In this document: one piece after another, positions 1,638-48,610 of the stretch
Layout: every line of letters starts with the position of its first letter
Position numbering within the stretch: position 1 is the stretch's first letter
IMG/VR virus record: IMGVR_UViG_3300011727_000001
Span: 19,900-83,899 of that record
DNA from: a virus
Lineage: Duplodnaviria; Heunggongvirae; Uroviricota; Caudoviricetes
Reading direction: 5' to 3' (one strand)
Length of the DNA: 64,000 nt
Made by a program: the position numbers and the translations under genes
Notes under the pieces: generated by a model
The model's database searches: none
Told to the model about the DNA's origin: nothing
The model's input: only the letters and a program-made list of their open reading frames with translations

Positions 1638-3278
1638 TCATTTTCGTCCGGTATCTTGGACTTCCTTTTGGCCTTTAGTAGCCGGTGATTTTTCATTCGG
1701 AGTATCCTTCGTGACCTGCCCCTGGCGGGACTGACCGGCGACCGGAGTTGAGCCGAATGAGGTTGGCGGCTGAAGGGAAATTTCCTCCCCCTCAAGCCAG
1801 TTGTTGATATCTTCTTGGATCTTCTGTTTGATGTCATTGCGCAGTTGCGGGAACAGCTTCTCAATCATAAGGCGCATATGCTCGCGACGGATTTCCGCTG
1901 GAGCCGTCAATTTCGCCAATGCCTCAGCTGTCACAAGATCATCAACCAGACGCATAACGTCGAAAGTGGTTGGATAGGTTACGAGGTTGTCCGTAGGCGT
2001 GGGAATACCCGCCCAACGACAAACCAGATCGACAATCTTATTTTCAGCGTTCTGACAGGACTGCGCTTTCGTCAGCAGGAGTGAATTCACACGCTCAAAG
2101 TCATATGCTTTGGCAACACCAGATGAGTTATCAATACCGACCGCGTTGTCCTGCTTGGTGCGTTCACCTGCCAAACCAATGGTGTGATAAATCTCGTTGA
2201 TGATTTTGTTAATCACCGCAAGAATAACGCCGGCCTGTTTCGGATCAGGCGACAGATACTCAGGCTTGGCACTTGAACCGGCGCCTGGATCATAAACAAA
2301 GACGCGCTTGGTGCCGAGTTCCAACACCTTGCTATACATATCATCACCGGCGGAAATAGCATTTGCCGGAATAGCCAACTGAGAGAAGGTCTGATCTTGA
2401 ATAATCGCATCAAGGTTTGACAAATAGTTGGTTACTGCGCGATCCAGATAAGCAATATCATCAATAAGCCCCTGAGCCTCATATGGCTGGGACTCGATAG
2501 TGTGATCATGCAAGATGACCGGGACAATACCGAGATCATGCGTCTGGCGATCAATCTCGCGCACCACGCGCTCAACTTTTCGGCCAGATTTAACCTCATA
2601 TTCTTCGAACAACACCCATTCATTGCGTGTCCAGAGGCGCATACGTTCGATAACTTCGCCTGAATCCTCGATTGGATCGGCATCGTTTCGTGTTAGTTCC
2701 CGAAGCTTGATCCACAGCAGACCACCGTCGCCATCTTCATCGTAAGCGTAATCAAGAATGTCCAGAGCATTGACCACGTAAGCATAGATACGAATATCTT
2801 GCTTTTTGGCTTCCGCAACAGAAATGGCTCGATTTGCTCCATTCTCGGTCTCTGTAACTCTCATGTTGTTATCGACCACGATAGCAACACGTCCAAAAAT
2901 GGAATTAGCGCCAGCCGACGAGCGCATGAATTGCGAGATGTCGTGACCATTCAAAGTGGTTCGTGACCAAAACTTTTTGACAATATCAGGCGCATCATCG
3001 AGCTTGCGAGCAATCGAGCCTTTAAAAAGGTATTTCTGAACGAGGTCGACCACCTCGCGAGTGTGGTTGAAGCGATAGGCGCGCTGCAGTCGCTTACCAA
3101 ACTCTTCCTCGCCTTCCTTGTGATAGCGAAAAATATTGTCCGTAAACCATGCCCGGCCGCCATTGTAGCAAGCTGAGAGAAAATGCCAGTGAGCCGCCAT
3201 AATATTATAGCGAGGATGACGCCGATCGTAGAAGGCGCGAAGTTTATTATTATGGTCTGCTTGTTTTACCGTTGCCAT
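1638..3278 (-). CDS. Portal protein
   Basis: 546 aa, immediately downstream of the large terminase gene. Size and position are typical of a portal, with an acidic/Gln-rich C-terminal tail. Confidence 0.55.
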   Translation of the reverse strand: MATVKQADHNNKLRAFYDRRHPRYNIMAAHWHFLSACYNGGRAWFTDNIFRYHKEGEEEFGKRLQRAYRFNHTREVVDLVQKYLFKGSIARKLDDAPDIVKKFWSRTTLNGHDISQFMRSSAGANSIFGRVAIVVDNNMRVTETENGANRAISVAEAKKQDIRIYAYVVNALDILDYAYDEDGDGGLLWIKLRELTRNDADPIEDSGEVIERMRLWTRNEWVLFEEYEVKSGRKVERVVREIDRQTHDLGIVPVILHDHTIESQPYEAQGLIDDIAYLDRAVTNYLSNLDAIIQDQTFSQLAIPANAISAGDDMYSKVLELGTKRVFVYDPGAGSSAKPEYLSPDPKQAGVILAVINKIINEIYHTIGLAGERTKQDNAVGIDNSSGVAKAYDFERVNSLLLTKAQSCQNAENKIVDLVCRWAGIPTPTDNLVTYPTTFDVMRLVDDLVTAEALAKLTAPAEIRREHMRLMIEKLFPQLRNDIKQKIQEDINNWLEGEEISLQPPTSFGSTPVAGQSRQGQVTKDTPNEKSPATKGQKEVQDTGRK

Positions 3279-3332: not shown

Positions 3333-4601
3333 TTACAAAGAAATACCGAGAATTTTGATATCGCGAACCGGATATTCGAGATCAGCAAAGTAACCGAACG
3401 CATCCGCGGCGTGTTCGACGCCGGCAGATTTATCAACCTCACGAGTGCCAGGTTTGTAAATTGTCTGCTCCAGGGCGTTGATGAAGTGACGGCATTTGCG
3501 GTTCACGCGTAAACGAACCACTCCCTCCGCTGTCTTCAGAAGACGATTAACCGAGTTAACGCGATCAGCGACGGCCGGATGCTTGCGCTTGAATTTGATA
3601 TTGGTGAAACCAGCCTCTCGAAGAATGTCCAAATCGGACTCCCCTCGCCCATGGGATCGGTTGTTGCCAGCAGGGTCGGGGTAGATCCGGATCTGGTTCA
3701 TCTGGCGATAATAGCGTTTGGCTAATTCATCCGCGGTCTCCTGCGTATTCGAACCAAACAGAACACACTCATCCACGACCCAGATTTCGCCATTCGGTTG
3801 CTCTTGAATAATCACCGATGACATTGGATCGATGTTAAAATCCTGACCGATGTAAATTGGCAAATGTGGATTGAATTCGTAATCACCGACATGAATTTTT
3901 CGATCGAAGGAGTAATAGACGCGACCAGACATCGTTTCAAAGGACGCTTCAAACTCTTGACGGAAGGATTTTTCATCCATATCTCGCCGAGCCTGCTCGA
4001 TCTCCTTTTTAGGAATGAAAGGCGAAGTAATTGTCGGAAACTGCCATGATTTCCAGGCGTTGACGACATTTCGACCTTTCTCATCCTTATAAGTATCGCC
4101 GCGCTGGCCTTCCATGTATTTTTCATAGAGCCAGTTGAACGATTTAGGCGTGCCAATAAATATAACGCGACCACCGGTGGTCGCCAAAGTCGGACGAAGA
4201 ACGGTTTCCCAAGTTTCCTCTTTAACGTCCTGCGCTTCATCAATAACCAGGAAGTTAATACCAACACCGCGGAGTGAATCCGGTTTGTCGGCGCCCTTGA
4301 GCATGATCTTCGATCCATTGATGAGATGGATTGTCATTCGCGTTTCGTTTACGCGTTTAATCCATTTCGCCGGAATAGAGTTCTTCAGATCATCCCAAAG
4401 AATGTCGCGTGCCATCTGATATGTCGGTGCTACATACCAGACTAATTGGTTCTTCTTTTCTGAGGCCGCCTGAATAAGGGCGATCTTACAAACCTGAGTT
4501 TTACCCCAGCGGCGCCCAGCCACAATCACTCGGTATCGACGAGGATCGCGAAGAACACGTTTTTGACCGAGATGAACCTTAAGCTGACCAGGCGCAATCA
4601 T
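3333..4601 (-). CDS. Terminase large subunit
   Basis: 422 aa. Walker A VIVAGRRWGKT near the N-terminus, Walker B-like VIDEAQ, and a C-terminal RNase-H-like nuclease region (GQDFNIDPMS...DPAG). Confidence 0.85.
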   Translation of the reverse strand: MIAPGQLKVHLGQKRVLRDPRRYRVIVAGRRWGKTQVCKIALIQAASEKKNQLVWYVAPTYQMARDILWDDLKNSIPAKWIKRVNETRMTIHLINGSKIMLKGADKPDSLRGVGINFLVIDEAQDVKEETWETVLRPTLATTGGRVIFIGTPKSFNWLYEKYMEGQRGDTYKDEKGRNVVNAWKSWQFPTITSPFIPKKEIEQARRDMDEKSFRQEFEASFETMSGRVYYSFDRKIHVGDYEFNPHLPIYIGQDFNIDPMSSVIIQEQPNGEIWVVDECVLFGSNTQETADELAKRYYRQMNQIRIYPDPAGNNRSHGRGESDLDILREAGFTNIKFKRKHPAVADRVNSVNRLLKTAEGVVRLRVNRKCRHFINALEQTIYKPGTREVDKSAGVEHAADAFGYFADLEYPVRDIKILGISL

Positions 4602-5407: not shown

Positions 5408-5665
5408 TCAAAGACCCCCTACCCTAAACCAGTCATACGCTTTTATTGTCGGTCGAACGATTTTACTCATTCCGGAACGCTCAAGCTCGACGATGCCGCG
5501 TTTTGACAAAAATCTTAATGACGTTCGTAGCGAGCCGTAGGCACATTTGTAAGGAAGCGCCTGATGCAGCTCTGTTATAGTGTAGAAAGATCCGACATCT
5601 GCGGCCTCCAATACCAGAAACATAATTTGGCGCTGTTTATCTGTTCGCTTTGGTTTATACGACAT
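5408..5665 (-). CDS. Small winged-helix DNA-binding protein
   Basis: 85 aa. wHTH-like TITELHQALPYKCAYGSLRTSLRFLSKRGIVE. Overlaps the upstream GNAT gene stop. Confidence 0.35.
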   Translation of the reverse strand: MSYKPKRTDKQRQIMFLVLEAADVGSFYTITELHQALPYKCAYGSLRTSLRFLSKRGIVELERSGMSKIVRPTIKAYDWFRVGGL

Positions 5666-23582: not shown

Positions 23583-23799
23583 CTCCTTGCGCCAAGGTCG
23601 CGCGGCTCGCCGGTCGTTCTAATTTAAACCCATAAAACTCAAGCGCCCTTAAAACGTCACGCATCTGGCGGCGACAATTATTGCGATATTTTGAGGTTTG
23701 CTTCCCCCAGCTCAGCGTGTAATCGCAAGAGTGGTAGCTATGAATCCTTTGGGCTAAGCTATCAATTTGCTCTTGTGATAGGTCGAATGGCTCTTTCAT
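23569..23799 (-). CDS. Hypothetical protein
   Basis: 76 aa. Confidence 0.3.
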   Translation of the reverse strand: MKEPFDLSQEQIDSLAQRIHSYHSCDYTLSWGKQTSKYRNNCRRQMRDVLRALEFYGFKLERPASRATLAQGDGND

Positions 23800-24347
23800 T
23801 TGCCTGCCTCCTTGGCCGTGACTGCAGGGAAAAGAGCGCGGATGGCGGCAGCTCCATGCTTAAGCCCGCTTTCTTGTCCTTTTTCAAATGCCTTCCAATC
23901 TGCTAATCCAGCGCAGTCAGCGACGTGATAGGAAAGCACAGCATTCTCAACGACCTCGGCACACTCTTCACGCACCGCTACCAGATCAACAGGCTTGGTG
24001 ACTACGCAGGTGAGAATGCGGCGCTCAAAATCAGCTTGCGCGGCGGTTTCAGCCGCGATGTCATCTTGAAATTCAGAATGGTGATCCTCTTGATGGGGAA
24101 GATATAAACGCCAGACCCCATTTTCATTTTGGATCACATAATCACCGAATGCCGTTTTCGCCTCGCGATTAAGAGAGCGAGAACAGAAAATCCGCCAATT
24201 CAGTTTTGTTATCTCTACTGCGCAAGGCATAGAGAGATGGGGAATAATTGCGAGTAACGCCTTTTCCAACATAACTGCCGGGATGTTACCTTGCGTCGCG
24301 TCAAGCGCATCCTGCATAGCAATATCCGGTATTTGAATCGCCGTCAT
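23796..24347 (-). CDS. Hypothetical protein
   Basis: 183 aa. Confidence 0.35.
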   Translation of the reverse strand: MTAIQIPDIAMQDALDATQGNIPAVMLEKALLAIIPHLSMPCAVEITKLNWRIFCSRSLNREAKTAFGDYVIQNENGVWRLYLPHQEDHHSEFQDDIAAETAAQADFERRILTCVVTKPVDLVAVREECAEVVENAVLSYHVADCAGLADWKAFEKGQESGLKHGAAAIRALFPAVTAKEAGK

Positions 24348-24943
24348 ACCGCGACCCCTTTCGTATCCAAATCATAGAGATGGGTTTTGCAGATCGACAT
24401 CGCCTTGTTCCAGAGCGTCGTATCGGCGTCGAGTAGAGCGCGCTCCAGCAATTCCTTTTTCTCACGCAGATAAAGCGGGGCGAATTGCGGATCGTGCTGA
24501 ACGATGGTGGACGTGTTATCTATAAGGTCGGCGACCTTGACGGTCTGCACCCATGCCGGCGCCTGCTTGATACGCTCAAGGTTCAGCTCAAACCGGGCTT
24601 TGCGATTTCCCGCCGACAAATCCACATTGGTCAAAGCCTTTACACCTCTTCCAACCTGTGGCCCGAATACCTGTTCGATGTATTCCAGCGTGACTTTGGT
24701 ATCTTCTACCACATCATGCAGATATGCCGTGGCGACAGCTGTCCAGGGAATGTTCGGCACTTCTTCGACAAGGCGCGCGACAGCGGTTGGATGGACGATA
24801 TATGGCTCACCGGTATATTTGCGAGTTTGACCGACCGCCATATGTGCGACTGTGGCTAAAAACATCGCTTCACGGATAATGGATTGGCCAAGCATTCCGG
24901 CTCTTACCATAACTCTCTCCTGTTGAACCTGACCCAAGGTCAA
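24344..24943 (-). CDS. HD-domain small alarmone hydrolase, (p)ppGpp-hydrolase-like (SpoT/Mesh1 family)
   Basis: GEPYIVHPTAVARLV...AYLHDVVEDT matches the RelA/SpoT hydrolase motif GEPYI(T)HPL(A)VA...LLHDV(I)EDT. ~190 aa single domain. Confidence 0.65.
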   Translation of the reverse strand: MTLGQVQQERVMVRAGMLGQSIIREAMFLATVAHMAVGQTRKYTGEPYIVHPTAVARLVEEVPNIPWTAVATAYLHDVVEDTKVTLEYIEQVFGPQVGRGVKALTNVDLSAGNRKARFELNLERIKQAPAWVQTVKVADLIDNTSTIVQHDPQFAPLYLREKKELLERALLDADTTLWNKAMSICKTHLYDLDTKGVAV

Positions 24944-25588
24944 AACGCTCTAGCCGAATAGAGCTTCCTTGGGTTTTCGGGTATTGCTACTAAACCTGCT
25001 CATTCGTCAGGAGTTTGCGCACCGTCGGCGTAACTGAAACTGGCGTGTTTAACCGGAGTATCACCTCTCCGCAGTCGGCCCATTTGCGCGGTTGGTCTAC
25101 TGCTACGTCTTTCCACTTCGAGCTGATATGGCGCCATCTATGCCAATCCTATGGCGTCGAAACCCTCGCGGTATTCGATCAGCTTCTCGTTCGTCCATTC
25201 GGACAAATACAAAGTCGGATTCTACTGAGGGAGAGCCGATATCCCGGTGAAGTTTTCTTTAATGTCGTTATCACCCTGACCGCGTTTGCCGCTCGACACT
25301 TCTCCTGATTGATCAGATCAGGGGCTGAGACTTCAGCCAAAGAACTAATTAATTTCGTGCCGAGGTGAGGAGTTGAACCTCAAGTCTTTTCCTTCATGCG
25401 TCATGACTGCCCTCCAAAATCGACTTTCCTCTTTAAAGCCCACGCTTCTCAACTTGGCCCCATACCGCGAATACTGAACGGTCGAGTTAGGAACCCCGGC
25501 ATATGTGCGGATCTCTCTCCGCTTGTCACGATTTCACTCGTCGCCGGAGGCGCGACCTCCAGGTGCCTGCTTGGCTTACTGTGAAGCC

Positions 25589-25708
25589 TTATTTCACGAG
25601 CTTTTCATTCCGGAAGGGTTCGTAACCTCGTCCCCATGCGACGACATATGCAAAGGCGCCGAGGGTCAAAATCCCTGCAAGGGAGAGAAGAAAATAGGTT
25701 CCAAACAT
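25589..25708 (-). CDS. Small TM peptide (39 aa)
   Basis: MFGTYFLLSLAGILTLGAFAYVVAWGRGYEPF.... RBS GAGG. Promoter-like motif upstream. Confidence 0.3.
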   Translation of the reverse strand: MFGTYFLLSLAGILTLGAFAYVVAWGRGYEPFRNEKLVK

Positions 25709-25805: not shown

Positions 25806-26399
25806 TTAAGAATGGTATTTAGCTTTAAATCTATCAAAATCCGGATCGGTCTCTTTGAGGTGTGCATACAAAGCATAATTCACACGACAATGGGTTCCGG
25901 GCGTAAGTGCGCGGCGAGGGGTATAAGTTGCTGTTTCACGATTTTCAATATTGATAAGATTAGCGTCTAAGAGGGCGTGAAATTCAGGGTATTCATCGGT
26001 TAGTTCTGGGGAGAGAAATCTTCCGCTTGGCTTTACCACATACTCGCACATTAACCGCTTCGATCCATCGCTAAGACGATCTAAGTTTTCCAGTAGCATT
26101 TGAGAAACTAACTTATATTTTGTAGACTTTCTTTTCTTTTCCGCTCGCGCTTTGCTTACCTCTGCGAGCCATGCGTAGGTGTAAAAAAATATACCCCAAA
26201 TTATAAGCGCTGATGAAAATGCAAATACAATGTAAATGATAGGAAGAAAATAAGAACCAAACTCTTTCATATTTACAAAAGTAGAGTAGTCCAACAGTAT
26301 AAGTATTGCAGCCGAAACGGCGCCTATAAAACCATATTTAAATGGTTTTTCGACAATCTTATCGCTAGTATTTAGCAATTCATTGGGATTAATTATCAT
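25806..26399 (-). CDS. Membrane protein, paralogue A (N-terminal two TM segments plus cytoplasmic domain with a PSGRFLSPE motif)
   Basis: 197 aa. Shares the KPSGRFLSPELTDEYPEF block with the adjacent ORF. AT-rich DNA. Confidence 0.45.
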   Translation of the reverse strand: MIINPNELLNTSDKIVEKPFKYGFIGAVSAAILILLDYSTFVNMKEFGSYFLPIIYIVFAFSSALIIWGIFFYTYAWLAEVSKARAEKKRKSTKYKLVSQMLLENLDRLSDGSKRLMCEYVVKPSGRFLSPELTDEYPEFHALLDANLINIENRETATYTPRRALTPGTHCRVNYALYAHLKETDPDFDRFKAKYHS

Positions 26400-26411: not shown

Positions 26412-26963
26412 TCACTTCTTTTTATTATTGTAGTAAATGCGATTTACGCGGTATGGTTTTCCTGCAAAGGATGAGTGTATTGTATATATTCCATATGCTG
26501 AATCGCTTTCGCTTTCCTCACCTTCCACAAGATCAGCGGTGCATAATTCATCAAACGCATCACCCCATTCAGGTGAAAGAAATCTACCGCTTGGCTCCTT
26601 CATGTAAAGTTTAAGCATAGATTTTGCATTAGGGCTTAATCTATTAGCGTTTTCTATGAGGCGTTTAAGCTCCTCTTTATTCGCGGATCTGCTACTCCAC
26701 TTGGAGTAAATCCAAGTGAGCGATATTTTAAAAACGTCTCTTAGGGCGTATAAAATTCCAAAACCTATTAAAAAACACGACATTACGCCCAAAATACGCG
26801 CTAACGGCAGAACCCAACTGCCTATGTCATTGGCGTCTATTCCTCCGCTACTATGTAGGGTTTCCACGGTAAGTGCTAAAATAAATAAAACAAAGCCGTA
26901 TATGAGCGGTTTTGAAAGCATAGATTCGATTGTATTCAGCCAATCTTTAGGGTTCGCGCTCAT
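26412..26963 (-). CDS. Membrane protein, paralogue B
   Basis: 183 aa. EPSGRFLSPEWGDAFDEL block and the same TM topology as paralogue A. Confidence 0.45.
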   Translation of the reverse strand: MSANPKDWLNTIESMLSKPLIYGFVLFILALTVETLHSSGGIDANDIGSWVLPLARILGVMSCFLIGFGILYALRDVFKISLTWIYSKWSSRSANKEELKRLIENANRLSPNAKSMLKLYMKEPSGRFLSPEWGDAFDELCTADLVEGEESESDSAYGIYTIHSSFAGKPYRVNRIYYNNKKK

Positions 26964-33221: not shown

Positions 33222-34664
33222 TTATGCGACTTTTTGTTGGGTTGTTTCATTAAAGCCAAGGCGAAGATCCAGCGCGTAACCGGCCTCATCACTGCGTTTA
33301 CGAACGGCTTCGAAGCTTTCACCTTCATAGTGACCATTCATATAGATCACCTTCAGGGCGTTGGCGTCGATCTGCTCCGGCGTGGCTTCACTTTCTTTCA
33401 GAACCACACTGGTATTGCCATCGCGAAGAACGATCTGACGACCAGCCTTGGACGTCTTAGAGGGATCGGTCGCTGGCTTTTTCTGAATATCTTCCCAGCC
33501 TGCACCGGTAGAAATTGCGTTGGCTTTCATGGCGAAATTCAGATCGTTACGAGTATGGCTTTGCAGCAATCCGCCGCCCATACCAAATGCGATATTGTCG
33601 ATGGAGAAACCAGCTGCAGCCATTTCAACCATAAGATTAGCAATCGATTCCGCGTTCATACCGTCGCCTTGAATGACGCCGACTTTCGAGTTCAGAACGC
33701 GATGACCTTTGCTGTTCACGGTGCCGCCGAATTTATCCCAAAGGATTTGCAGCGTTTTGATTGGTGTAAGAACCGGGTCTCCCGAATCCGGACGCACAAT
33801 CAGTTTCCCGCCGATCTTCATGATCTTATCGCGCAGCTCGCCGCCGTAGATATTTTCCAGGGCGTTAAACAGATCATAGCTGTCTGAAACAACCGAGAAC
33901 ATACCGTCCCCAAAGGCGTCGATCATATTGCTATAAGCTTTCGCCTCGCCATCGCGACCCCAAGAGGTCATAGTCGAGTGCTCTGAGGCAGGGATCGAAT
34001 AACCGGCGCAGATATTCCGATCATTATAAATACGGCGAACCGCGAGAAGTCCTTCGATCGTATCTGTGCCTTGGAAGTTAATCAGGTGCGCCATTGCGCC
34101 CAGACCGGCAGATTCACCGCTCGATACACCGCGTCCGCCGAAGTCATGCAATTTGAACGGCAGACCGTCCAGGTTATCGCATGTAAGGCGCATCATTCCC
34201 CGGATCATCGCTTTGACGTGGAAAGAGGTTGTCGCAACAGAGGTAGGATACCAGATGGCGCGAAGCATTGCTGTTTCAACGAAGCTTGTCAGCCAAGGCA
34301 GATCAGGGTCAGTGTTGCGAACCTGAACCAGAGGCACGCTCTTTTCCACATAGCTGCCTTCTGGCAGCGATTGAATCTCCAACGGCAGGTAACCGTTGTG
34401 CTTCATCACAATGTGCTCCCAGCCAGCGCGATTGAACGGCAGACCGTGTGTCTTCATCAACGCTTCGGCTTCGTCAATCATTGATGGCGTGATCTGATGC
34501 ATCAGATAATCGCGAATGAAGGCGTGAATGCCGACAAACAGGACGCCGCCTGGCTGATCAGTTGGGCGGGATTCGATATACGAGGACATGAACTTTGTGT
34601 TCGGCGGCAGCTGGAGAAAATGCGAGTGCTTATAGCTATCACTCGCCAGAATGATATTCGTCAT
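33222..34664 (-). CDS. nadV: Nicotinamide phosphoribosyltransferase (NAMPT/NadV family)
   Basis: 480 aa. N-terminal NIILASDSYKHSHF...PPNT matches the NAMPT NILLATDSYK signature. Length fits. Confidence 0.8.
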   Translation of the reverse strand: MTNIILASDSYKHSHFLQLPPNTKFMSSYIESRPTDQPGGVLFVGIHAFIRDYLMHQITPSMIDEAEALMKTHGLPFNRAGWEHIVMKHNGYLPLEIQSLPEGSYVEKSVPLVQVRNTDPDLPWLTSFVETAMLRAIWYPTSVATTSFHVKAMIRGMMRLTCDNLDGLPFKLHDFGGRGVSSGESAGLGAMAHLINFQGTDTIEGLLAVRRIYNDRNICAGYSIPASEHSTMTSWGRDGEAKAYSNMIDAFGDGMFSVVSDSYDLFNALENIYGGELRDKIMKIGGKLIVRPDSGDPVLTPIKTLQILWDKFGGTVNSKGHRVLNSKVGVIQGDGMNAESIANLMVEMAAAGFSIDNIAFGMGGGLLQSHTRNDLNFAMKANAISTGAGWEDIQKKPATDPSKTSKAGRQIVLRDGNTSVVLKESEATPEQIDANALKVIYMNGHYEGESFEAVRKRSDEAGYALDLRLGFNETTQQKVA

Positions 34665-34673
34665 AGTAACCTC

Positions 34674-35702
34674 TTAGAGCAGGTTGGAGATGAGGGTGAA
34701 GTGATCTTCGAAGAACCGGTCTGAACCGAGATCATCGAAGTAATACCAATCCGCGTGAGCGGCATCGTCGCCGCCGGCGACAGCGGGAAGATCAATGTGG
34801 TTCGGGATGACAAACATATACATCATCGAAACCACACGACCGCGCAGTGACCGTGACGGATTATCGGCAAGCTCGTGGCTGGCCAGATTATGTTCGATGT
34901 TGGACAGATCGAGACCGGTTTCTTCCTTCAGCTCACGCTTAGCGGCTTCAAGAAAAGTTTCACCGCTTTCAACGAAACCGCCGGGTGTCGCGAGCAATCC
35001 GCGTCCAATTGCTTTACCGCGTGTCACAAGCAGGATCTTACCGCGATGAACAACGAGAGCGTCTGCGGCGAGAAATGGCCCTGTGCCGTATTCTTCACGG
35101 TTACGCTGATATGTATCGACCTCAGCCACAAGGTTTTTGAACGCATCGCTGAAAGTGAATGCTTTCATCCAAGGCAAGAGGCGAGCGGAGACTGCATCTT
35201 GCGGCAGGCGCGGCAGGCGGCGCAAATATTCGATCCGAATATCGGAAGCGTTAATGGTGCCATGCTGGGCTGTCAGCTGAACGGAGTTCCATTCGGGAAA
35301 CATATTCAGATAGTAGGACGAGGCATCTTTGCCGTATCCGGTTAACGCAATCGTTACGTCGCGCAGACCATGATTACGAAAACCACCGCCGTTGAGATGA
35401 TCCAAGACAGCTTCGTTAACGGTTTTGCGCAGTTCATTCGCCCAACGATAGTCCGGCTGGTAATCGCGAAGAGGGGCGATGATAATGCGGCCGGACATTA
35501 CTTCGTGACGGAACACGCTTTCGATCATTTCTTTTCGTTCATCAAAGGTGAACGGGTTGATCGGCGTGCGAGCCTGATAGGCAGAGCCGACAATCAGAAT
35601 GAGAGTTTCAACCTTGTTCAAGGCTTCGCGAATAACGTGCTCATGCCCGATATGCAGTGGCTGGAAGCGCCCAATGTAAACGCCGTAATTGTAGTCAGCC
35701 AT
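34674..35702 (-). CDS. Bifunctional NMN adenylyltransferase (NadM-type) with C-terminal Nudix hydrolase
   Basis: N-terminal GRFQPLHIGH nucleotidyltransferase motif. C-terminal Nudix box GGFVESGETFLEAAKRELKEETGL. Confidence 0.8.
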   Translation of the reverse strand: MADYNYGVYIGRFQPLHIGHEHVIREALNKVETLILIVGSAYQARTPINPFTFDERKEMIESVFRHEVMSGRIIIAPLRDYQPDYRWANELRKTVNEAVLDHLNGGGFRNHGLRDVTIALTGYGKDASSYYLNMFPEWNSVQLTAQHGTINASDIRIEYLRRLPRLPQDAVSARLLPWMKAFTFSDAFKNLVAEVDTYQRNREEYGTGPFLAADALVVHRGKILLVTRGKAIGRGLLATPGGFVESGETFLEAAKRELKEETGLDLSNIEHNLASHELADNPSRSLRGRVVSMMYMFVIPNHIDLPAVAGGDDAAHADWYYFDDLGSDRFFEDHFTLISNLL

Positions 35703-44758: not shown

Positions 44759-44782
44759 CATAACTAAGTAATTACTTACCTT
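44759..44782 (-). promoter_or_regulatory. Promoter-like motif preceded by a 9-bp inverted repeat
   Basis: CATAACTAAGTAATTACTTACC. IR GATCGTGGG / CCCACGATC at 44730-44759. Confidence 0.45.
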
Positions 44783-46145
44783 CTCGCGCACGACGAAGGG
44801 CGCGAAGTTTCTTACCGCATACACCGTAGAGCTTTTCGGCCTGTCGTTGCGAGATTTCACCAGCTTCAACACGCGTGTAAGCCTCACGATACTTCTCCGG
44901 AATTTCAGTCGGATCAGACTTTGCTTTCGGAGCAGGAGTGGCCGCCTTTACTGGCTTCTTGGCTGGCTTTTTCTTTTTCACAACCGCCTGTTTAGCTTTC
45001 TTCTCAGCCACCGCTTCTGCGACAACCTTTTTCACCTCTTTTACCGAAACACTTTCTTCAGGTTTCTTGTCATCGAGCGCAGCAACAGGTTTCGCATCCT
45101 TCTTGATTTCAGCCACCTTCGGCAGGCTGTTGCCCACAACTTCAACCTTCGGGGTGATAGAAAGATCGGTGCCTTTAGGGCCGCCGATAATAACTGCCTC
45201 AATCACTCCGATATGATCACCAGCAATAACATTGGCGAGGATTTGGGCTGATGGGGCGTGAGACGTCATAGGTTTGTTATTAATCAGCAGCGAATATGCT
45301 TCTTGAGGAAGCTTAGCCACGATGTGATAAGCAGCGGCGCGCATCTTATCCGGCTCGTTATATGGAACCGCGATCACATCTTCCGGTGCAACTTTAATCA
45401 GCGTGACCAGATCGCCGCCAAATCCGCGAATATAGCCGCGGCGCGCGACGTGCAAACCGGTCGAGCACTCAACACGACGGCTATCATCAACCATCTTTTC
45501 TGCCATAGACACGCGAGAGCCAACGCGTTGTGGCACATTCCGACTGTGGCAATCGTGAAAGAGATCGGCGGCTTTGTCGCGATATTTCAGGATCTTGTAA
45601 GCAACGATCGAGCCATCATCGGCAATCGGCAAATCGCCGCGTTCCATGAAGTTCAAAAGTTCCTGCACAGAATGCTTGCGTTTATCGATAACTTTGGAGA
45701 GACGTTCCAGAAACTTCTCAAGACCTTTGGAGTTCTGAAACGCTGCATATTCAAGCTGTTTTTCGAGCTTTTCGACGCCGGGAATTTCAACACCATTCAC
45801 CACAGCGACAGTTGTTTCCGCTTCGGGATTGACCGTTGGAGCGACGTAATGACGATCCGTTTCCTGATTGCCATTACCGAGATTGAAGTGCGAGGCAAAA
45901 TCTTTGAATTTGCGTTTGATGAAGCGAATGAAACCGCCGGACTGTTTCTCGATTTTGCTTTCGAGCGAATAATTATCCAGGTCGATCTCAACGGTTTTGT
46001 GCTTGGCGAGTGGGCGCACGATGTCGTCCATGATCGACTTGGTGCGCCAGCCAGACGCCGGCAGATTAATCTCCTTGCCTTCAGAGGTGTAGAGGGTGAC
46101 GCCATCCTTACTTGTGATGGCGGATACAATGCGAACCTTACTCAT
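44772..46145 (-). CDS. rIIB: rIIB-like protein
   Basis: Block STGLHVARRGYIRGFGG...VAPEDVIAVPYNEPDKMRAAAYHIV aligns with T4 rIIB SRGLHVCSKSYIRHFGS...VHPRDVVSIPIDYNDAKMRTCQYEV. It lies directly downstream of the rIIA-like gene. Lys/Ala-rich C-terminal tail. Confidence 0.7.
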   Translation of the reverse strand: MSKVRIVSAITSKDGVTLYTSEGKEINLPASGWRTKSIMDDIVRPLAKHKTVEIDLDNYSLESKIEKQSGGFIRFIKRKFKDFASHFNLGNGNQETDRHYVAPTVNPEAETTVAVVNGVEIPGVEKLEKQLEYAAFQNSKGLEKFLERLSKVIDKRKHSVQELLNFMERGDLPIADDGSIVAYKILKYRDKAADLFHDCHSRNVPQRVGSRVSMAEKMVDDSRRVECSTGLHVARRGYIRGFGGDLVTLIKVAPEDVIAVPYNEPDKMRAAAYHIVAKLPQEAYSLLINNKPMTSHAPSAQILANVIAGDHIGVIEAVIIGGPKGTDLSITPKVEVVGNSLPKVAEIKKDAKPVAALDDKKPEESVSVKEVKKVVAEAVAEKKAKQAVVKKKKPAKKPVKAATPAPKAKSDPTEIPEKYREAYTRVEAGEISQRQAEKLYGVCGKKLRALRRAREGK

Positions 46146-48610
46146 GCTGCTTCCTTTTCAACTACTGCGATTTTGTTGATGGTGATTGGCGCAGGAGCCG
46201 GAACTGGCTCTGCGTCAGGAATTGCTTTGATTTTGGGAGTTTGGGCGGCAAGGGTTGCCGCTTTGGCTTCAGCTTTCGCTTGTGCCTGATATTTTCGTTG
46301 AAGAGCCTTCACAACGATCATAAAGTCGTCCAGCGATGCGGCGTCATCAACATTTGCGTAAGGAAATGACTTTGCAAAGACGCTCAGATAGGCAAATTTC
46401 CGGTTCGCCTCTCTACGCTCCAAACGCAAATATCCGTAAACACTTTGCGCGGCATTAATCACCGCCTCCAGCATTTCTGAAATCCGGGCGTGTTCGCCCT
46501 GATCTTGTTTTTTGCGCTGATATTGCCCGTGCAAGCGCTCTTTCAGCCTTTGAGTGCAAAACAATGCCTTTTCAAAAACTTCGGTAAGTTTAGTTTTAGG
46601 CGGGAAAAACCATTCAGCAGCCGATCGATGATGTATAACGGATTGAACGAGCTGCGACGGTTCGCGATATCCGACGTTCTCAGCGACAAATCCCTGAGCC
46701 ATCATGACCGCGTAAAGCACCTCTTTCTTCTTGATATTTTCATGAAGAAACTCCGCCATTGCGGCATAAAGATTAACCGAACCACGCGCCTTTAACGCCG
46801 CTTCATCTTTGACATCACATGCAATCGCGACATCGCCGAAATAATTTGTAACCGTCTTCGCATAGTTCGTAACCGGCCCCACGCCATAACTGTGATACCA
46901 GTCATTTACCTGGCGAAGATAATATCGTGCTGTGACGAGAGCTGGCTCGCCCTGCTCTTTTTTATTCGGTTTCAAATTCATCAAGCTGATGAAACGAGCG
47001 TCTTCCGGCGTTTTCTTTGCGCGTTTAGGCGGTGCGGTGATCGCAACCTCTTCAACGCTGATGCCATAGCGTTGAGCTTCCTGTTTGATTTTAGCAATCA
47101 TGCCGTGTTGGCTGCGCTTCAAAACAAATGTCATGTAGCTATGAGCGTTGCCATATTCCGGATCTTTAATTTTCGCGCGTTTCCGTTCATCCGCAATAGT
47201 CGAAATCACGTCCCGTTGATTAAAACTGATATAGAGCTTTGGCATCACCTCGGCATCGGATTGATCTACCGTATCGATGCGCTTCGGCTTCGCCAGTCCA
47301 GCCCAACTGCCGACTTCGAAAGAAAATAAATTTCTATGCAAAGCCAATTTATTTGCAATGCGAAGATACAGGCGGCTTTCGACTTTAAAATCATCAATTC
47401 CACGATCCCTCGCGCGGCGGAAAACGCGACGATAATCAGGGCGAAGTTTCGCAAACTCACGTCGAACGGCCTTAACTTGGTTGCGAACCAAACGCTCAAT
47501 ATGAAAAACGGCCAGTTTCGCTGCAATGTCCTCGATCCGAACAACTGCAGCTTTTGGGCTATCATCAACCTGACGCGTTATTTCGCGATAGTCCTGGTAG
47601 TTAATTCTGCGATTCCAAATTCGCTTCTCGTTGGTCGAGATCACCGCGGCGGTATCCTTGATAATCGTCTTGGCCACCGGCTTCATGCTTTGTTCGAGAA
47701 CGCGATGGGCGCGCTGCATCAAACCAAGCAGAGTATTTTTAGTCTTATCTGTATAAGACAGGGACTCACGAGAGGGTGTTACGCCGACCGAATTAGCGGC
47801 CGCCATTACAATTAAACGATATTGATGCGGAATAAGGTTTCCGATTTTAACCAGACTGTCATGAATCTCTTTATCTGTGGTGGAGACCGGATAAAGAACG
47901 GTGCCATAAAGACAATAAACATGGCTTTCATTCATTCCGGCTCTTGGTGCCAGAATGAAATTATGCGTGGCGTTCTCGTAGTCGAAACGGTTGATCAAAT
48001 CGCCATTCAGATTGGCGACCATTCCGCCCTGCATAACTACAGAGCGAATAATCTCCTCAAACTCGGCGCGATCTTTTTCGTTTTTCAACGGAATAGAGAC
48101 GGTGACGCCGGTTTCTTCACTCGGCACTTTTACCATCTGTCGGAAGTCAGGTTTACCATCCGTCTCAGCGCCGCCGCGCGAGATCGCAAACACATGACGA
48201 AAACCACCGTTACAAGATGTCACGGAGAAGTGGTCGGAATAAGCAAATGGGGCTTTCGAACCGAGGCCGAAACCGCCGGTCTGACTGGAGTCCTGGATCT
48301 TAGTGGTGCCACCGTAGCGACAATAGATCGTGCCGATCTTGTCAGCGGGAATACCTGGGCCAAAGTCCTTAATGACCAGCTCTGTGTCAGTTAGGGTGAT
48401 TTCTACCGGAATATCACGCTTATTGGACACGATGTGCGCGTCATAGGCGTTACATACAACCTCGCGCACAACGGCGCGCTTCTTATCACGGTAAAGAGTG
48501 TCAGAAAGAACGGTAAAGAATTCTGCGGATTCTGACATTGTGAATGCGTGGGCTTTGCCACCGCCAATAATGGCGTGAGTATCGAGCCCTGCTATCTGCG
48601 ATACTTCCAT
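46142..48610 (-). CDS. rIIA: rIIA-like protein (N-terminal GHKL/HATPase_c domain)
   Basis: N-box REVVCNAYDAH (ExxxNAxDA) and G1 box KDFGPGIP. 822 aa. Adjacent to the rIIB homologue. Confidence 0.7.
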   Translation of the reverse strand: MEVSQIAGLDTHAIIGGGKAHAFTMSESAEFFTVLSDTLYRDKKRAVVREVVCNAYDAHIVSNKRDIPVEITLTDTELVIKDFGPGIPADKIGTIYCRYGGTTKIQDSSQTGGFGLGSKAPFAYSDHFSVTSCNGGFRHVFAISRGGAETDGKPDFRQMVKVPSEETGVTVSIPLKNEKDRAEFEEIIRSVVMQGGMVANLNGDLINRFDYENATHNFILAPRAGMNESHVYCLYGTVLYPVSTTDKEIHDSLVKIGNLIPHQYRLIVMAAANSVGVTPSRESLSYTDKTKNTLLGLMQRAHRVLEQSMKPVAKTIIKDTAAVISTNEKRIWNRRINYQDYREITRQVDDSPKAAVVRIEDIAAKLAVFHIERLVRNQVKAVRREFAKLRPDYRRVFRRARDRGIDDFKVESRLYLRIANKLALHRNLFSFEVGSWAGLAKPKRIDTVDQSDAEVMPKLYISFNQRDVISTIADERKRAKIKDPEYGNAHSYMTFVLKRSQHGMIAKIKQEAQRYGISVEEVAITAPPKRAKKTPEDARFISLMNLKPNKKEQGEPALVTARYYLRQVNDWYHSYGVGPVTNYAKTVTNYFGDVAIACDVKDEAALKARGSVNLYAAMAEFLHENIKKKEVLYAVMMAQGFVAENVGYREPSQLVQSVIHHRSAAEWFFPPKTKLTEVFEKALFCTQRLKERLHGQYQRKKQDQGEHARISEMLEAVINAAQSVYGYLRLERREANRKFAYLSVFAKSFPYANVDDAASLDDFMIVVKALQRKYQAQAKAEAKAATLAAQTPKIKAIPDAEPVPAPAPITINKIAVVEKEAA

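What the first reader, a model, noticed from the sequence alone, without database searches (positions are those of the whole stretch)
24344..24943. Stand-alone (p)ppGpp-hydrolase-like HD protein
The motifs GEPYIVHP...LHDVVEDT are the hallmark of RelA/SpoT-type hydrolase domains (Mesh1/SAH family). The protein is single-domain, ~190 aa. A phage small alarmone hydrolase could blunt the stringent response. It could also degrade alarmone or cyclic-nucleotide-like defence signals during infection. The gene sits in the block of small early-type genes.
Basis: partly seen in the sequence, partly recalled or inferred. Interest (0 to 1): 0.55.

Follow-up and report, generated by a model that had tools for sequence, protein, structure and literature searches.

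The report
Phage small alarmone hydrolase (PaSpo-type)
This is a real, intact phage gene for a small enzyme that strips the 3'-pyrophosphate from bacterial alarm nucleotides, but it belongs to a phage enzyme family that was already described and tested in 2020, so it is an ordinary new member.

Summary
On the minus strand, 24344..24910 encodes a 188-aa single-domain RelA/SpoT-type HD hydrolase. Every catalytic residue of the RSH hydrolase site is present and invariant in 33 homologues. The AlphaFold model (pLDDT 95) superposes over its full length on MESH1 and bacterial small alarmone hydrolases (SAHs). dN/dS against a 94%-identical relative is 0.075.

The window is a large phage related to the RHEph10/B1VFA/RHph_X66 Rhizobium phages and, more distantly, to Salmonella phage SSU5. 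All ten of those Rhizobium-phage records carry the orthologue. The protein is 46% identical (E 2e-37) to SSU5_099, the only RSH-type HD protein found in SSU5. I therefore take SSU5_099 to be the PaSpo SAH that Jimmy et al. 2020 showed neutralises all five toxic alarmone synthetases tested.

Most likely function: a 3'-pyrophosphohydrolase that erases (p)ppGpp, (pp)pApp and possibly tRNA-3'-pyrophosphate during infection. This would counter toxSAS defences, the stringent response, or both. Verdict: new member of a known kind, low interest.

In passing: the 680-nt non-coding stretch just upstream holds a covarying 56-nt motif absent from Rfam, followed by a tRNA-like domain.

The parts
24344..24910 (-). 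SAH coding sequence: 188 aa plus the TGA stop. PaSpo-type small alarmone hydrolase with a single HD_4 domain.
   Evidence: ORF. Pfam, NCBIfam, PHROG and PDB matches. 46% identity to SSU5_099, E 2e-37. AF2 pLDDT 95.2 and Foldseek TM 0.78-0.80 to MESH1 and bacterial SAHs. dN/dS 0.075.
24911..24943 (-). Probably not translated. It contains the Shine-Dalgarno-like AGGAGAGAG (about 24915..24923).
   Evidence: Sequence. Homologues start at the ATG. The GGAGAGAG-N5-ATG arrangement is conserved in L004.
24788..24811 (-). Motif GEPYIVHP. It contains H40, the metal-ligand histidine equivalent to RelSeq H53. R30 (RelSeq R44) lies just upstream.
   Evidence: Alignment to 1vj7. Invariant columns R30, K31, Y37, H40, P41. 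Coordinates.
24698..24721 (-). Motif LHDVVEDT. It contains the HD dyad H65-D66 (RelSeq H77-D78) and the ED pair E69-D70 (RelSeq E81-D82).
24512..24538 (-). Motif KVADLIDNT. It contains D128 and N132 (RelSeq D144 and N148), which complete the metal and substrate site.
23796..24347 (-). Downstream 183-aa gene of unknown function. Its ATG overlaps the SAH stop (ATGA). It is not a conserved partner.
   Evidence: ORF. No Pfam or PADLOC hit; weak PHROG 20840 hit. The gene in the same slot in SSU5, RHph_X66, L004 and L007 differs in size or sequence.
24911..25588 (-). 678-nt stretch upstream of the SAH with no convincing ORF. It is the best-conserved stretch of the neighbourhood. The SAH promoter or leader probably lies here.
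   Evidence: ORF list. Identity to L004 is 93-99% per 100 nt over 25522..25023, versus 83-94% across most of the SAH gene. Part of it is conserved in L007 at a different position.

Best explanation
The gene encodes an active small alarmone hydrolase of the PaSpo subfamily. This is a single HD-domain, metal-dependent (Mn2+ in characterised relatives) 3'-pyrophosphohydrolase. It removes the 3'-diphosphate from (p)ppGpp and (pp)pApp and, if it behaves like other SAHs, from the pyrophosphorylated 3'-CCA end of tRNA. Expressed from the phage's accessory-gene block, it would erase the products of RelA/SpoT-family synthetases in the infected cell. My preferred selective role is counter-defence against toxic small alarmone synthetases: CapRel/PhRel/FaRel2, which pyrophosphorylate tRNA; FaRel/Tas1, which make (pp)pApp; and GRel/PANGU, which makes pppGpp. 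The same chemistry would also blunt the host stringent response. Shown here: the fold, an intact and conserved catalytic site, purifying selection, orthology to the SSU5 SAH, and conservation across the phage lineage. Inferred: the catalytic activity, the substrate range and the in-infection role.
For: Domain and family: HD_4 E 3.2e-11; spoT_relA hydrolase region E 1.1e-19; PHROG 990 E 7.3e-38. PDB sequence hits are to Rel/RelA/SpoT hydrolase domains, MESH1 and bacterial SAHs. Catalytic residues R30, H40, H65, D66, E69, D70, D128 and N132 align with RelSeq R44, H53, H77, D78, E81, D82, D144 and N148, and are invariant in 33-35 homologues. The AF2 model has pLDDT 95.2 and pTM 0.91. Foldseek top hits are human MESH1 (TM 0.80, rmsd 2.1 A over 178 columns), P. 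aeruginosa SAH, L. levettii SAH and C. glutamicum RelH. The protein is 46% identical, E 2e-37, to SSU5_099, the only RSH-type HD protein found in the 100 kb of SSU5 that was fetched. I take SSU5_099 to be the SSU5 PaSpo SAH. That SAH neutralised CapRel, PhRel2, FaRel2, PhRel and FaRel in toxicity assays (PMC7229694). [quoted passage not shown] Orthologues at 47-59% identity occur in all ten RHEph10-like Rhizobium-phage records that share the window's portal. dN/dS is 0.075 with dS 0.54 against L004. A pppGpp-making toxSAS defence (PANGU) has recently been reported (bioRxiv 10.64898/2026.04.06.716658).
Against: No biochemical or genetic data exist for this protein or for any Rhizobium-phage orthologue. 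At 46% identity to PaSpo-SSU5, substrate range could differ. tRNA-PP hydrolysis was shown in vitro for MESH1 and ATfaRel, not directly for this subfamily in the texts I read. I did not show that hosts of this phage carry toxSAS systems; only the broad capRel distribution in alpha-proteobacteria is documented (PMC3153485). No published experiment that I found shows a phage SAH rescuing a phage from a toxSAS defence during a real infection. Counter-defence and stringent-response suppression cannot be separated from sequence.
Confidence: 0.78

Rival explanations
1. Host take-over rather than counter-defence. The main role would be to keep (p)ppGpp low in slow-growing or starved soil hosts, so that rRNA, ribosome and nucleotide synthesis stay on for phage production. 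The enzyme and chemistry are the same; only the selective reason differs.
For: The hydrolase site is that of SpoT/Rel (p)ppGpp hydrolases. The gene is a core gene of the whole RHEph10-like lineage and of SSU5, not a patchy accessory gene; that fits a general physiological role better than a response to a sporadic defence. The phage also carries nucleotide- and NAD-supply genes (RNR, NAMPT, NMNAT/Nudix). Phage infection has been linked to alarmone accumulation (discussion in PMC7229694).
Against: The hosts already have SpoT/Rel hydrolases. The only experimental data for the subfamily concern toxSAS neutralisation. The two roles are not mutually exclusive.
Confidence: 0.35
2. Mesh1-like metabolic phosphatase. 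The physiological substrate would be NADPH or another 2'/3'-phosphorylated nucleotide such as PAPS, adjusting the NAD(P) pool together with the phage's NAD salvage genes.
For: The best structural matches include human MESH1 bound to NADPH and to PAPS (5vxa, 9chy). NAMPT and NMNAT/Nudix genes lie about 9 kb away. An orphan bacterial SAH is reported to be metabolically promiscuous (PMC9765508 abstract).
Against: Sequence similarity to MESH1 (E about 1e-10 to 1e-11 by phmmer against the PDB) is much weaker than to PaSpo-SSU5 (pairwise BLASTP E 2e-37); the two statistics are not strictly comparable. There is no operon link with the NAD genes. Structural similarity reflects the fold shared by all SAHs.
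Confidence: 0.06
3. Hydrolase of cyclic-nucleotide or other non-alarmone immune signals (CBASS, Pycsar or Thoeris-type messengers).
For: None specific. It rests only on the fact that some other HD-superfamily enzymes cleave cyclic dinucleotides (general knowledge).
Against: All profile, sequence and fold matches are to RSH-type 3'-pyrophosphohydrolases. There is no PADLOC hit. To my knowledge, known phage signal-degrading enzymes have other folds.
Confidence: 0.03
4. Catalytically dead or purely binding protein, for example an alarmone sponge.
For: None.
Against: All metal-binding and catalytic residues are intact and invariant across homologues. There is strong purifying selection.
Confidence: 0.02

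Closest known systems
PaSpo small alarmone hydrolase of Salmonella phage SSU5 (taken here to be SSU5_099, YP_006906731)
   Same: Single HD_4 domain, similar size (213 vs 188 aa) and identical catalytic motifs, with 46% identity over 155 aa, E 2e-37. It is encoded by a phage whose portal is also related to the window's: SSU5-like elements are 51% identical and two Salmonella-phage records matched. In both phages the gene sits among small accessory genes and is followed by a gene that overlaps it by 4 nt.
   Different: Different host clade (Enterobacteria vs probably Rhizobiales). SSU5 has a C-terminal insertion and extension that is absent here. The downstream gene is unrelated. PaSpo-SSU5 has experimental support; this protein has none.
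Orthologues in Rhizobium phages RHph_X66, V1VFA-S, B1VFA, RHph_N1_10/N1_15/N2_6, RHph_Y2_11/Y2_17_1 and RHEph10
   Same: Same phage lineage (portal 63-64% identical). Same gene at 47-59% identity. Same kind of neighbourhood, including a DUF3768 gene a few genes upstream.
   Different: Only moderately similar, and no near-identical deposited phage was found. They are annotated only as 'metal-dependent phosphohydrolase', or mis-annotated as 'bifunctional (p)ppGpp synthetase/hydrolase'. None has been studied.
PbcSpo SAHs: C. marina ATfaRel (type IV antitoxin) and the Salmonella phage PVP-SE1 SAH
   Same: Stand-alone RSH hydrolases that neutralise all tested toxSAS. ATfaRel restores aminoacylation of pyrophosphorylated tRNA.
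   Different: A different SAH subfamily. ATfaRel is encoded in a toxin-antitoxin operon next to its toxSAS, whereas no synthetase gene was seen next to this gene.
MESH1 (HDDC3) and bacterial SAHs with solved structures (P. aeruginosa SAH, L. levettii SAH, C. glutamicum RelH)
   Same: Same fold over the full length, TM 0.74-0.80, with the same metal site.
   Different: 22-27% identity in the Foldseek alignments. These are cellular housekeeping or orphan enzymes. MESH1's proposed physiological substrate is NADPH.
Hydrolase domain of long RSH enzymes (SpoT, Rel)
   Same: Highest-scoring PDB sequence matches (M. tuberculosis Rel E 4.4e-13, RelSeq E 4.8e-12), with the catalytic residues aligned one to one.
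   Different: It lacks the synthetase, TGS and ACT/RRM regulatory domains. It matches only about positions 7-123 of the 687-position TIGR00691 model and scores far below that model's cut-off.

Membership tests
Small alarmone hydrolase (SAH; single-domain RSH hydrolase) | Architecture: an RSH-type HD hydrolase domain only, with no SYNTH, TGS or ACT domains. | tested here: met
   188 aa. The only Pfam hits are HD_4 and a weak HD match. The TIGR00691 match is confined to the N-terminal hydrolase region. The AF2 model is a single all-helical domain that covers MESH1 and SAH structures end to end.
Small alarmone hydrolase (SAH; single-domain RSH hydrolase) | Complete RSH hydrolase active site (RelSeq R44, H53, H77-D78, E81-D82, D144, N148). 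| tested here: met
   R30, H40, H65-D66, E69-D70, D128 and N132 are aligned in the phmmer alignment to 1vj7. They are invariant in alignments A1 and A2.
Small alarmone hydrolase (SAH; single-domain RSH hydrolase) | Mn2+-dependent hydrolysis of the 3'-pyrophosphate of (p)ppGpp or (pp)pApp. | not testable with these tools
   Needs enzyme assays. It is inferred from the conserved site and from the tested homologue.
PaSpo subfamily (Atkinson 2011; Jimmy 2020) | Classified with PaSpo rather than PbcSpo, Mesh1 or other SAH subfamilies. | tested here: inconclusive
   Tested by proxy only. The pairwise BLASTP E-value to the SSU5 SAH is 2e-37 at 46% identity. phmmer E-values against PDB sequences are 7e-11 for MESH1, 8.5e-7 for the L. 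levettii SAH, 3.5e-5 for the P. aeruginosa SAH, 1.1e-4 for RelH and 1.5e-3 for Aph1. The two statistics are not strictly comparable, and the authors' subfamily HMMs were not available to run. paSpo is reported from alpha-, beta-, gamma- and delta-proteobacteria, which is compatible. I file the protein as PaSpo-type on this basis.
PaSpo subfamily (Atkinson 2011; Jimmy 2020) | Neutralises toxSAS toxicity (CapRel, PhRel, PhRel2, FaRel, FaRel2) when co-expressed. | not testable with these tools
   Shown for the SSU5 and PVP-SE1 SAHs (PMC7229694). Not known for this protein.
Type IV antitoxin of a toxSAS toxin-antitoxin operon (ATfaRel-like) | Encoded adjacent to a toxic small alarmone synthetase gene. 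| tested here: not met
   The flanking genes on both sides have no RelA_SpoT/SYNTH, Pfam or PADLOC match. The neighbours vary between relatives. It is a stand-alone phage SAH.
Long RSH (SpoT/Rel/RelA) | HD plus SYNTH catalytic domains with C-terminal regulatory domains, about 700 aa. | tested here: not met
   188 aa. The TIGR00691 score is 70 bits against a cut-off of 499, and the NF008303 score is 53 against 947.

The most novel reading that the evidence does not exclude
The SAH may be functionally coupled to the conserved non-coding element immediately upstream of it: a 56-nt covarying motif followed by a 143-nt tRNA-like domain with an acceptor-like stem and a T-arm. For example, the phage might make a tRNA-like RNA that acts as a decoy or sensor for tRNA-pyrophosphorylating toxSAS enzymes, with the SAH recycling it and the host tRNAs. 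That would be an RNA-plus-enzyme counter-defence module. The evidence does not exclude this, but it supports only proximity. In relative L007 three genes separate the element from the SAH, and the 56-nt motif occurs in many phages where no SAH was detected in the fetched flanks.
Probability: 0.04. Interest if true: 0.7.

Novelty: new member of a known kind. Interest (0 to 1): 0.2.

Why it matters
Phage-encoded alarmone hydrolases are a plausible general answer to defences and stress responses built on RelA/SpoT-type synthetases. This example extends the experimentally tested SSU5 PaSpo type to a lineage of roughly 110-120 kb phages of Rhizobiales, where the gene is present in all ten related Rhizobium-phage records examined. 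That makes these phages and their agriculturally relevant hosts a reasonable system for an experiment I did not find in the literature I searched: testing whether a phage SAH matters during a real infection. The finding adds no new principle.

Tried and rejected
1. A conserved partner protein. In the window, RHph_X66 and SSU5, the SAH is followed by a 4-nt-overlapping gene of 180-183 aa. The three proteins show no similarity. In closer relatives the slot holds a 163-aa or a 71-aa gene. Rejected.

2. A near-identical deposited phage. Megablast of 2.5 kb found nothing.

3. A defence-system identity for the SAH or its neighbours. No PADLOC hits.

4. Rfam identity for the upstream non-coding stretch and for the 56-nt motif. 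No hit at E<=1 in the window or in five other loci, apart from ordinary tRNAs and one sub-threshold sRNA match.

5. tRNA or tmRNA in the stretch. ARAGORN at default settings finds none in the window, L004 or L007. At relaxed thresholds it returns only mutually inconsistent low-score calls, which I disregard.

6. Thermodynamic signal. The z-score is 0.04 for the 236-nt core and -1.83 for the whole stretch, neither convincing.

7. More homologues of the tRNA-like core by 17- and 24-mer scans. The viral scan gave 0-2 hits and the genome scan gave 50. BLAST showed that all of them are chance matches.

8. A consistent neighbouring gene for the 56-nt motif across 12 loci. None found.

9. A literature search for the motif sequence. 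No paper.

10. A literature link between toxSAS and rhizobia. None found.

Full report
**1. The observation.** An ORF spans 24344..24943 on the minus strand. Its translation contains GEPYIVHP (residues 34-41 of the 188-aa form) and LHDVVEDT (residues 64-71). The 24943 boundary is only the first in-frame TTG. The ATG at 24910 is the more likely start, for two reasons. It lies 5 nt downstream of AGGAGAGAG, and the closest homologues start there (MVGAGMLGQS in P0001, MISYLGHS in P0002). The TGA stop overlaps the ATG of the next gene in an ATGA.

**2. What the protein is.**
- Profile matches: Pfam HD_4 (PF13328) E 3.2e-11, above its curated cut-off. The N-terminal hydrolase region of TIGR00691 spoT_relA, E 1.1e-19. 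PHROG 990 'metal-dependent phosphohydrolase', E 7.3e-38.
- PDB sequence matches: the best hits are the hydrolase domains of M. tuberculosis Rel, RelSeq, RelA and SpoT. MESH1 and stand-alone bacterial SAHs follow.
- Catalytic site: the phmmer alignment to RelSeq (1vj7) pairs R30, H40, H65-D66, E69-D70, D128 and N132 with RelSeq R44, H53, H77-D78, E81-D82, D144 and N148. All of these are invariant in alignments of 33-35 homologues.
- Structure: an AlphaFold2 model built on that alignment is very confident (mean pLDDT 95.2, pTM 0.91) and forms one helical domain. Foldseek against the PDB returns only RSH hydrolases. Full-length matches are human MESH1 (TM 0.80, rmsd 2.1 A), P. aeruginosa SAH, L. 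levettii SAH and C. glutamicum RelH.
- Selection: against the 94%-identical relative on a 110-kb metagenomic contig (L004), dS is 0.54 and dN is 0.041, so dN/dS is 0.075. The gene is under strong purifying selection.

**3. The genome it sits in.** The window encodes a portal, rIIA and rIIB, ribonucleotide reductase, SbcC/SbcD, a helicase, and NAMPT plus NMNAT/Nudix. It has no tRNA genes and a G+C content of about 49%.
- The portal is 63-64% identical to those of Rhizobium phages B1VFA, V1VFA-S, RHph_N1_10, RHph_Y2_11, RHEph10 and RHph_X66 (115-122 kb). It is about 51% identical to SSU5-like phage-plasmids of Enterobacteria.
- No near-identical deposited phage was found. Metagenomic contigs of 110-113 kb carry 94% and 75% identical SAHs in a syntenic block.
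- All ten Rhizobium-phage records that share the portal also carry the SAH orthologue, at 47-59% identity, and so does SSU5. The gene is thus a stable component of this lineage.

**4. Link to experimental knowledge.** The protein is 46% identical (E 2e-37) to SSU5_099. SSU5_099 is an HD_4 protein and the only RSH-type HD gene found in the 100 kb of SSU5 that I fetched. I therefore take it to be the SSU5 'PaSpo' SAH of the literature.
- Jimmy et al. 2020 (PMC7229694) tested the stand-alone phage SAHs of SSU5 (PaSpo) and PVP-SE1 (PbcSpo). Both neutralised CapRel, PhRel2, FaRel2, PhRel and FaRel. The authors proposed that incoming phages could bypass alarmone-mediated defence by encoding such hydrolases.
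- SAHs (MESH1 and ATfaRel) restore aminoacylation of tRNA whose CCA end was pyrophosphorylated by FaRel2 (bioRxiv 10.1101/2021.04.30.441581).
- PaSpo-SSU5 is described as removing that modification and is used to detoxify FaRel2, PhRel2 and CapRel during expression.
- A 2026 preprint reports a defence system (PANGU) whose GRel toxSAS effector makes pppGpp. That widens the set of defences such an enzyme could counter.

**5. Mechanism.** The best explanation is an active 3'-pyrophosphohydrolase (Mn2+-dependent in characterised relatives) that erases (p)ppGpp, (pp)pApp and possibly tRNA-3'-PP in the infected cell.
- Shown here: fold, active site, selection, orthology and lineage conservation.
- Inferred: activity, substrate range and role.
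- Counter-defence against toxSAS systems and suppression of the host stringent response use the same chemistry, so sequence cannot separate them. I lean to counter-defence because that is what the homologue has been shown to do. The gene's presence throughout the lineage fits a general physiological role at least as well.
- A Mesh1-like NADPH phosphatase role and cyclic-nucleotide degradation are much less likely.

**6. Context and partners.** The gene lies in a long co-directional run of small genes, mostly of unknown function. A DUF3768 gene lies upstream, as it does in RHph_X66, L004 and L007. The 183-aa gene that overlaps the SAH stop has no detectable counterpart in SSU5 or RHph_X66 and is replaced or truncated in close relatives. 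No synthetase or defence-type gene is adjacent. It is a stand-alone SAH, not an antitoxin of a local operon.

**7. The non-coding stretch upstream.** This was noticed while checking the promoter side. The 678 nt between the SAH start and a 39-aa membrane-peptide ORF (24911..25588) have no convincing ORF.
- Conservation: against L004, 25522..25023 is 93-99% identical per 100 nt. The SAH gene is 83-94% over most of its length, and the 12-kb neighbourhood ranges from 58% to 100%. A few other 100-nt windows are equally conserved, so recent recombination is an alternative explanation.
- Independent support: in the more distant L007, a 202-nt piece is 78% identical but lies in a different gap, three genes upstream of the SAH.
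- The motif: the 5' part is a 56-nt element (25562..25507) made of a 7-bp hairpin, the invariant ACGA-GUGAAA-UCGU, and GCGGR-GAGAGA-YCCGC. An exact 21-mer from it retrieved 13 distinct sequences from phage and metagenome contigs, counting the window and its two relatives.
- Covariation: on these sequences 96.6% of cells pair, six pairs show changes on both sides, and 0 of 500 shuffles reach the observed score. Slid controls collapse. The middle helix is invariant by construction of the search.
- Known families: the motif is absent from Rfam and from the searchable literature. It is single-copy in the window.
- Neighbours: it has no constant neighbouring gene, but it often abuts tRNA genes. B1VFA has tRNA-Cys 2 nt downstream of it, L019 has tRNA-Met just upstream, and L022 has tRNA-Leu about 160 nt downstream.
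- tRNA-like domain: in the window, L004 and L007 the motif is followed by a 143-nt domain (25500..25358). It is closed by a 7-bp acceptor-like stem next to a T-arm (TGAGG-TTCAACT-CCTCA). Both stems change compensatorily in L007. ARAGORN calls neither a tRNA nor a tmRNA.
- Link to the SAH: no SAH was detected in the fetched parts of the other motif-bearing loci, so the motif is not SAH-specific. I record it as an unexplained candidate structured RNA.

**8. Verdict.** The finding is real and correctly interpreted, but it is a new member of a known and experimentally characterised kind of phage gene. Interest is low (0.2).

Noticed in passing
window 25507..25562 (minus strand); also L007 4099-4175, L013 (Rhizobium phage B1VFA) 300-341, and L008-L012, L016, L017, L019, L020, L022, L024: A 56-nt structured motif: a covarying 7-bp hairpin, the invariant ACGA-GUGAAA-UCGU, and GCGGR-GAGAGA-YCCGC. 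It was found in 13 distinct phage and metagenome sequences, often beside tRNA genes or just after a stop codon. It is not in Rfam or the searchable literature, and it is single-copy in the window. 96.6% of cells pair, six pairs have changes on both sides, and 0 of 500 shuffles reach the score. Function unknown.
   Followed up: partly
window 25358..25500 (minus strand); L004 about 5411-5553; L007 about 4176-4317: A 143-nt tRNA-like domain directly after the motif. It has an acceptor-like 7-bp stem (GCCGGGG/CCTCGGC), a T-arm (TGAGG-TTCAACT-CCTCA) and a roughly 110-nt conserved insert. Both stems are replaced compensatorily in L007 (CCTGGAG/CTCCGGG and TAGGG-TTCGACT-CCCTG). ARAGORN calls neither a tRNA nor a tmRNA, and there are only three sequences.
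   Followed up: partly
window 24911..25588: The whole non-coding stretch upstream of the SAH is better conserved against L004 (93-99% per 100 nt over 25522..25023) than most of the SAH gene (83-94%), although dS of the SAH gene is 0.54. The cause is either strong non-coding constraint or recent recombination.
   Followed up: partly
window 33222..34664 and 34674..35702 (minus strand): Adjacent genes for nicotinamide phosphoribosyltransferase (PHROG 448, E 2e-151) and a cytidylyltransferase-family/Nudix fusion with a weaker NMNAT match. Together they form a phage NAD+ salvage pair of the kind proposed to counter NAD-depleting defences (my own knowledge; also mentioned in PMC12846349).
   Followed up: no
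window 44772..48610 (minus strand): rIIB-like (457 aa) and rIIA-like (822 aa) genes in tandem. The phage's portal is otherwise related to SSU5-type elements.
   Followed up: no
window 1638..3278; P0005 and P0011: The portal is 63-64% identical to RHEph10-like Rhizobium phages and 51% identical to SSU5-like phage-plasmids of Enterobacteria. SAH homologues labelled as Shinella zoogloeoides and Ensifer proteins sit on contigs of 117 and 119 kb, the size of these phage genomes. Those contigs may be phage or phage-plasmid genomes inside bacterial assemblies.
   Followed up: no
window 23796..24347 (minus strand): A 183-aa gene overlaps the SAH stop by 4 nt. SSU5 (183 aa) and RHph_X66 (180 aa) have a same-sized gene in the same overlapping position, but with no detectable sequence similarity. 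L004 has 163 aa there and L007 has 71 aa.
   Followed up: yes
window 25589..25708, 25806..26399 and 26412..26963 (minus strand): A 39-aa hydrophobic peptide ORF and two genes of 183-197 aa with apparently hydrophobic N-terminal halves lie upstream of the non-coding stretch. The L004 counterpart of one of them has a weak SieB (superinfection exclusion) Pfam hit. These two genes are the most divergent part of the block versus L004, at 58-77% nucleotide identity.
   Followed up: no
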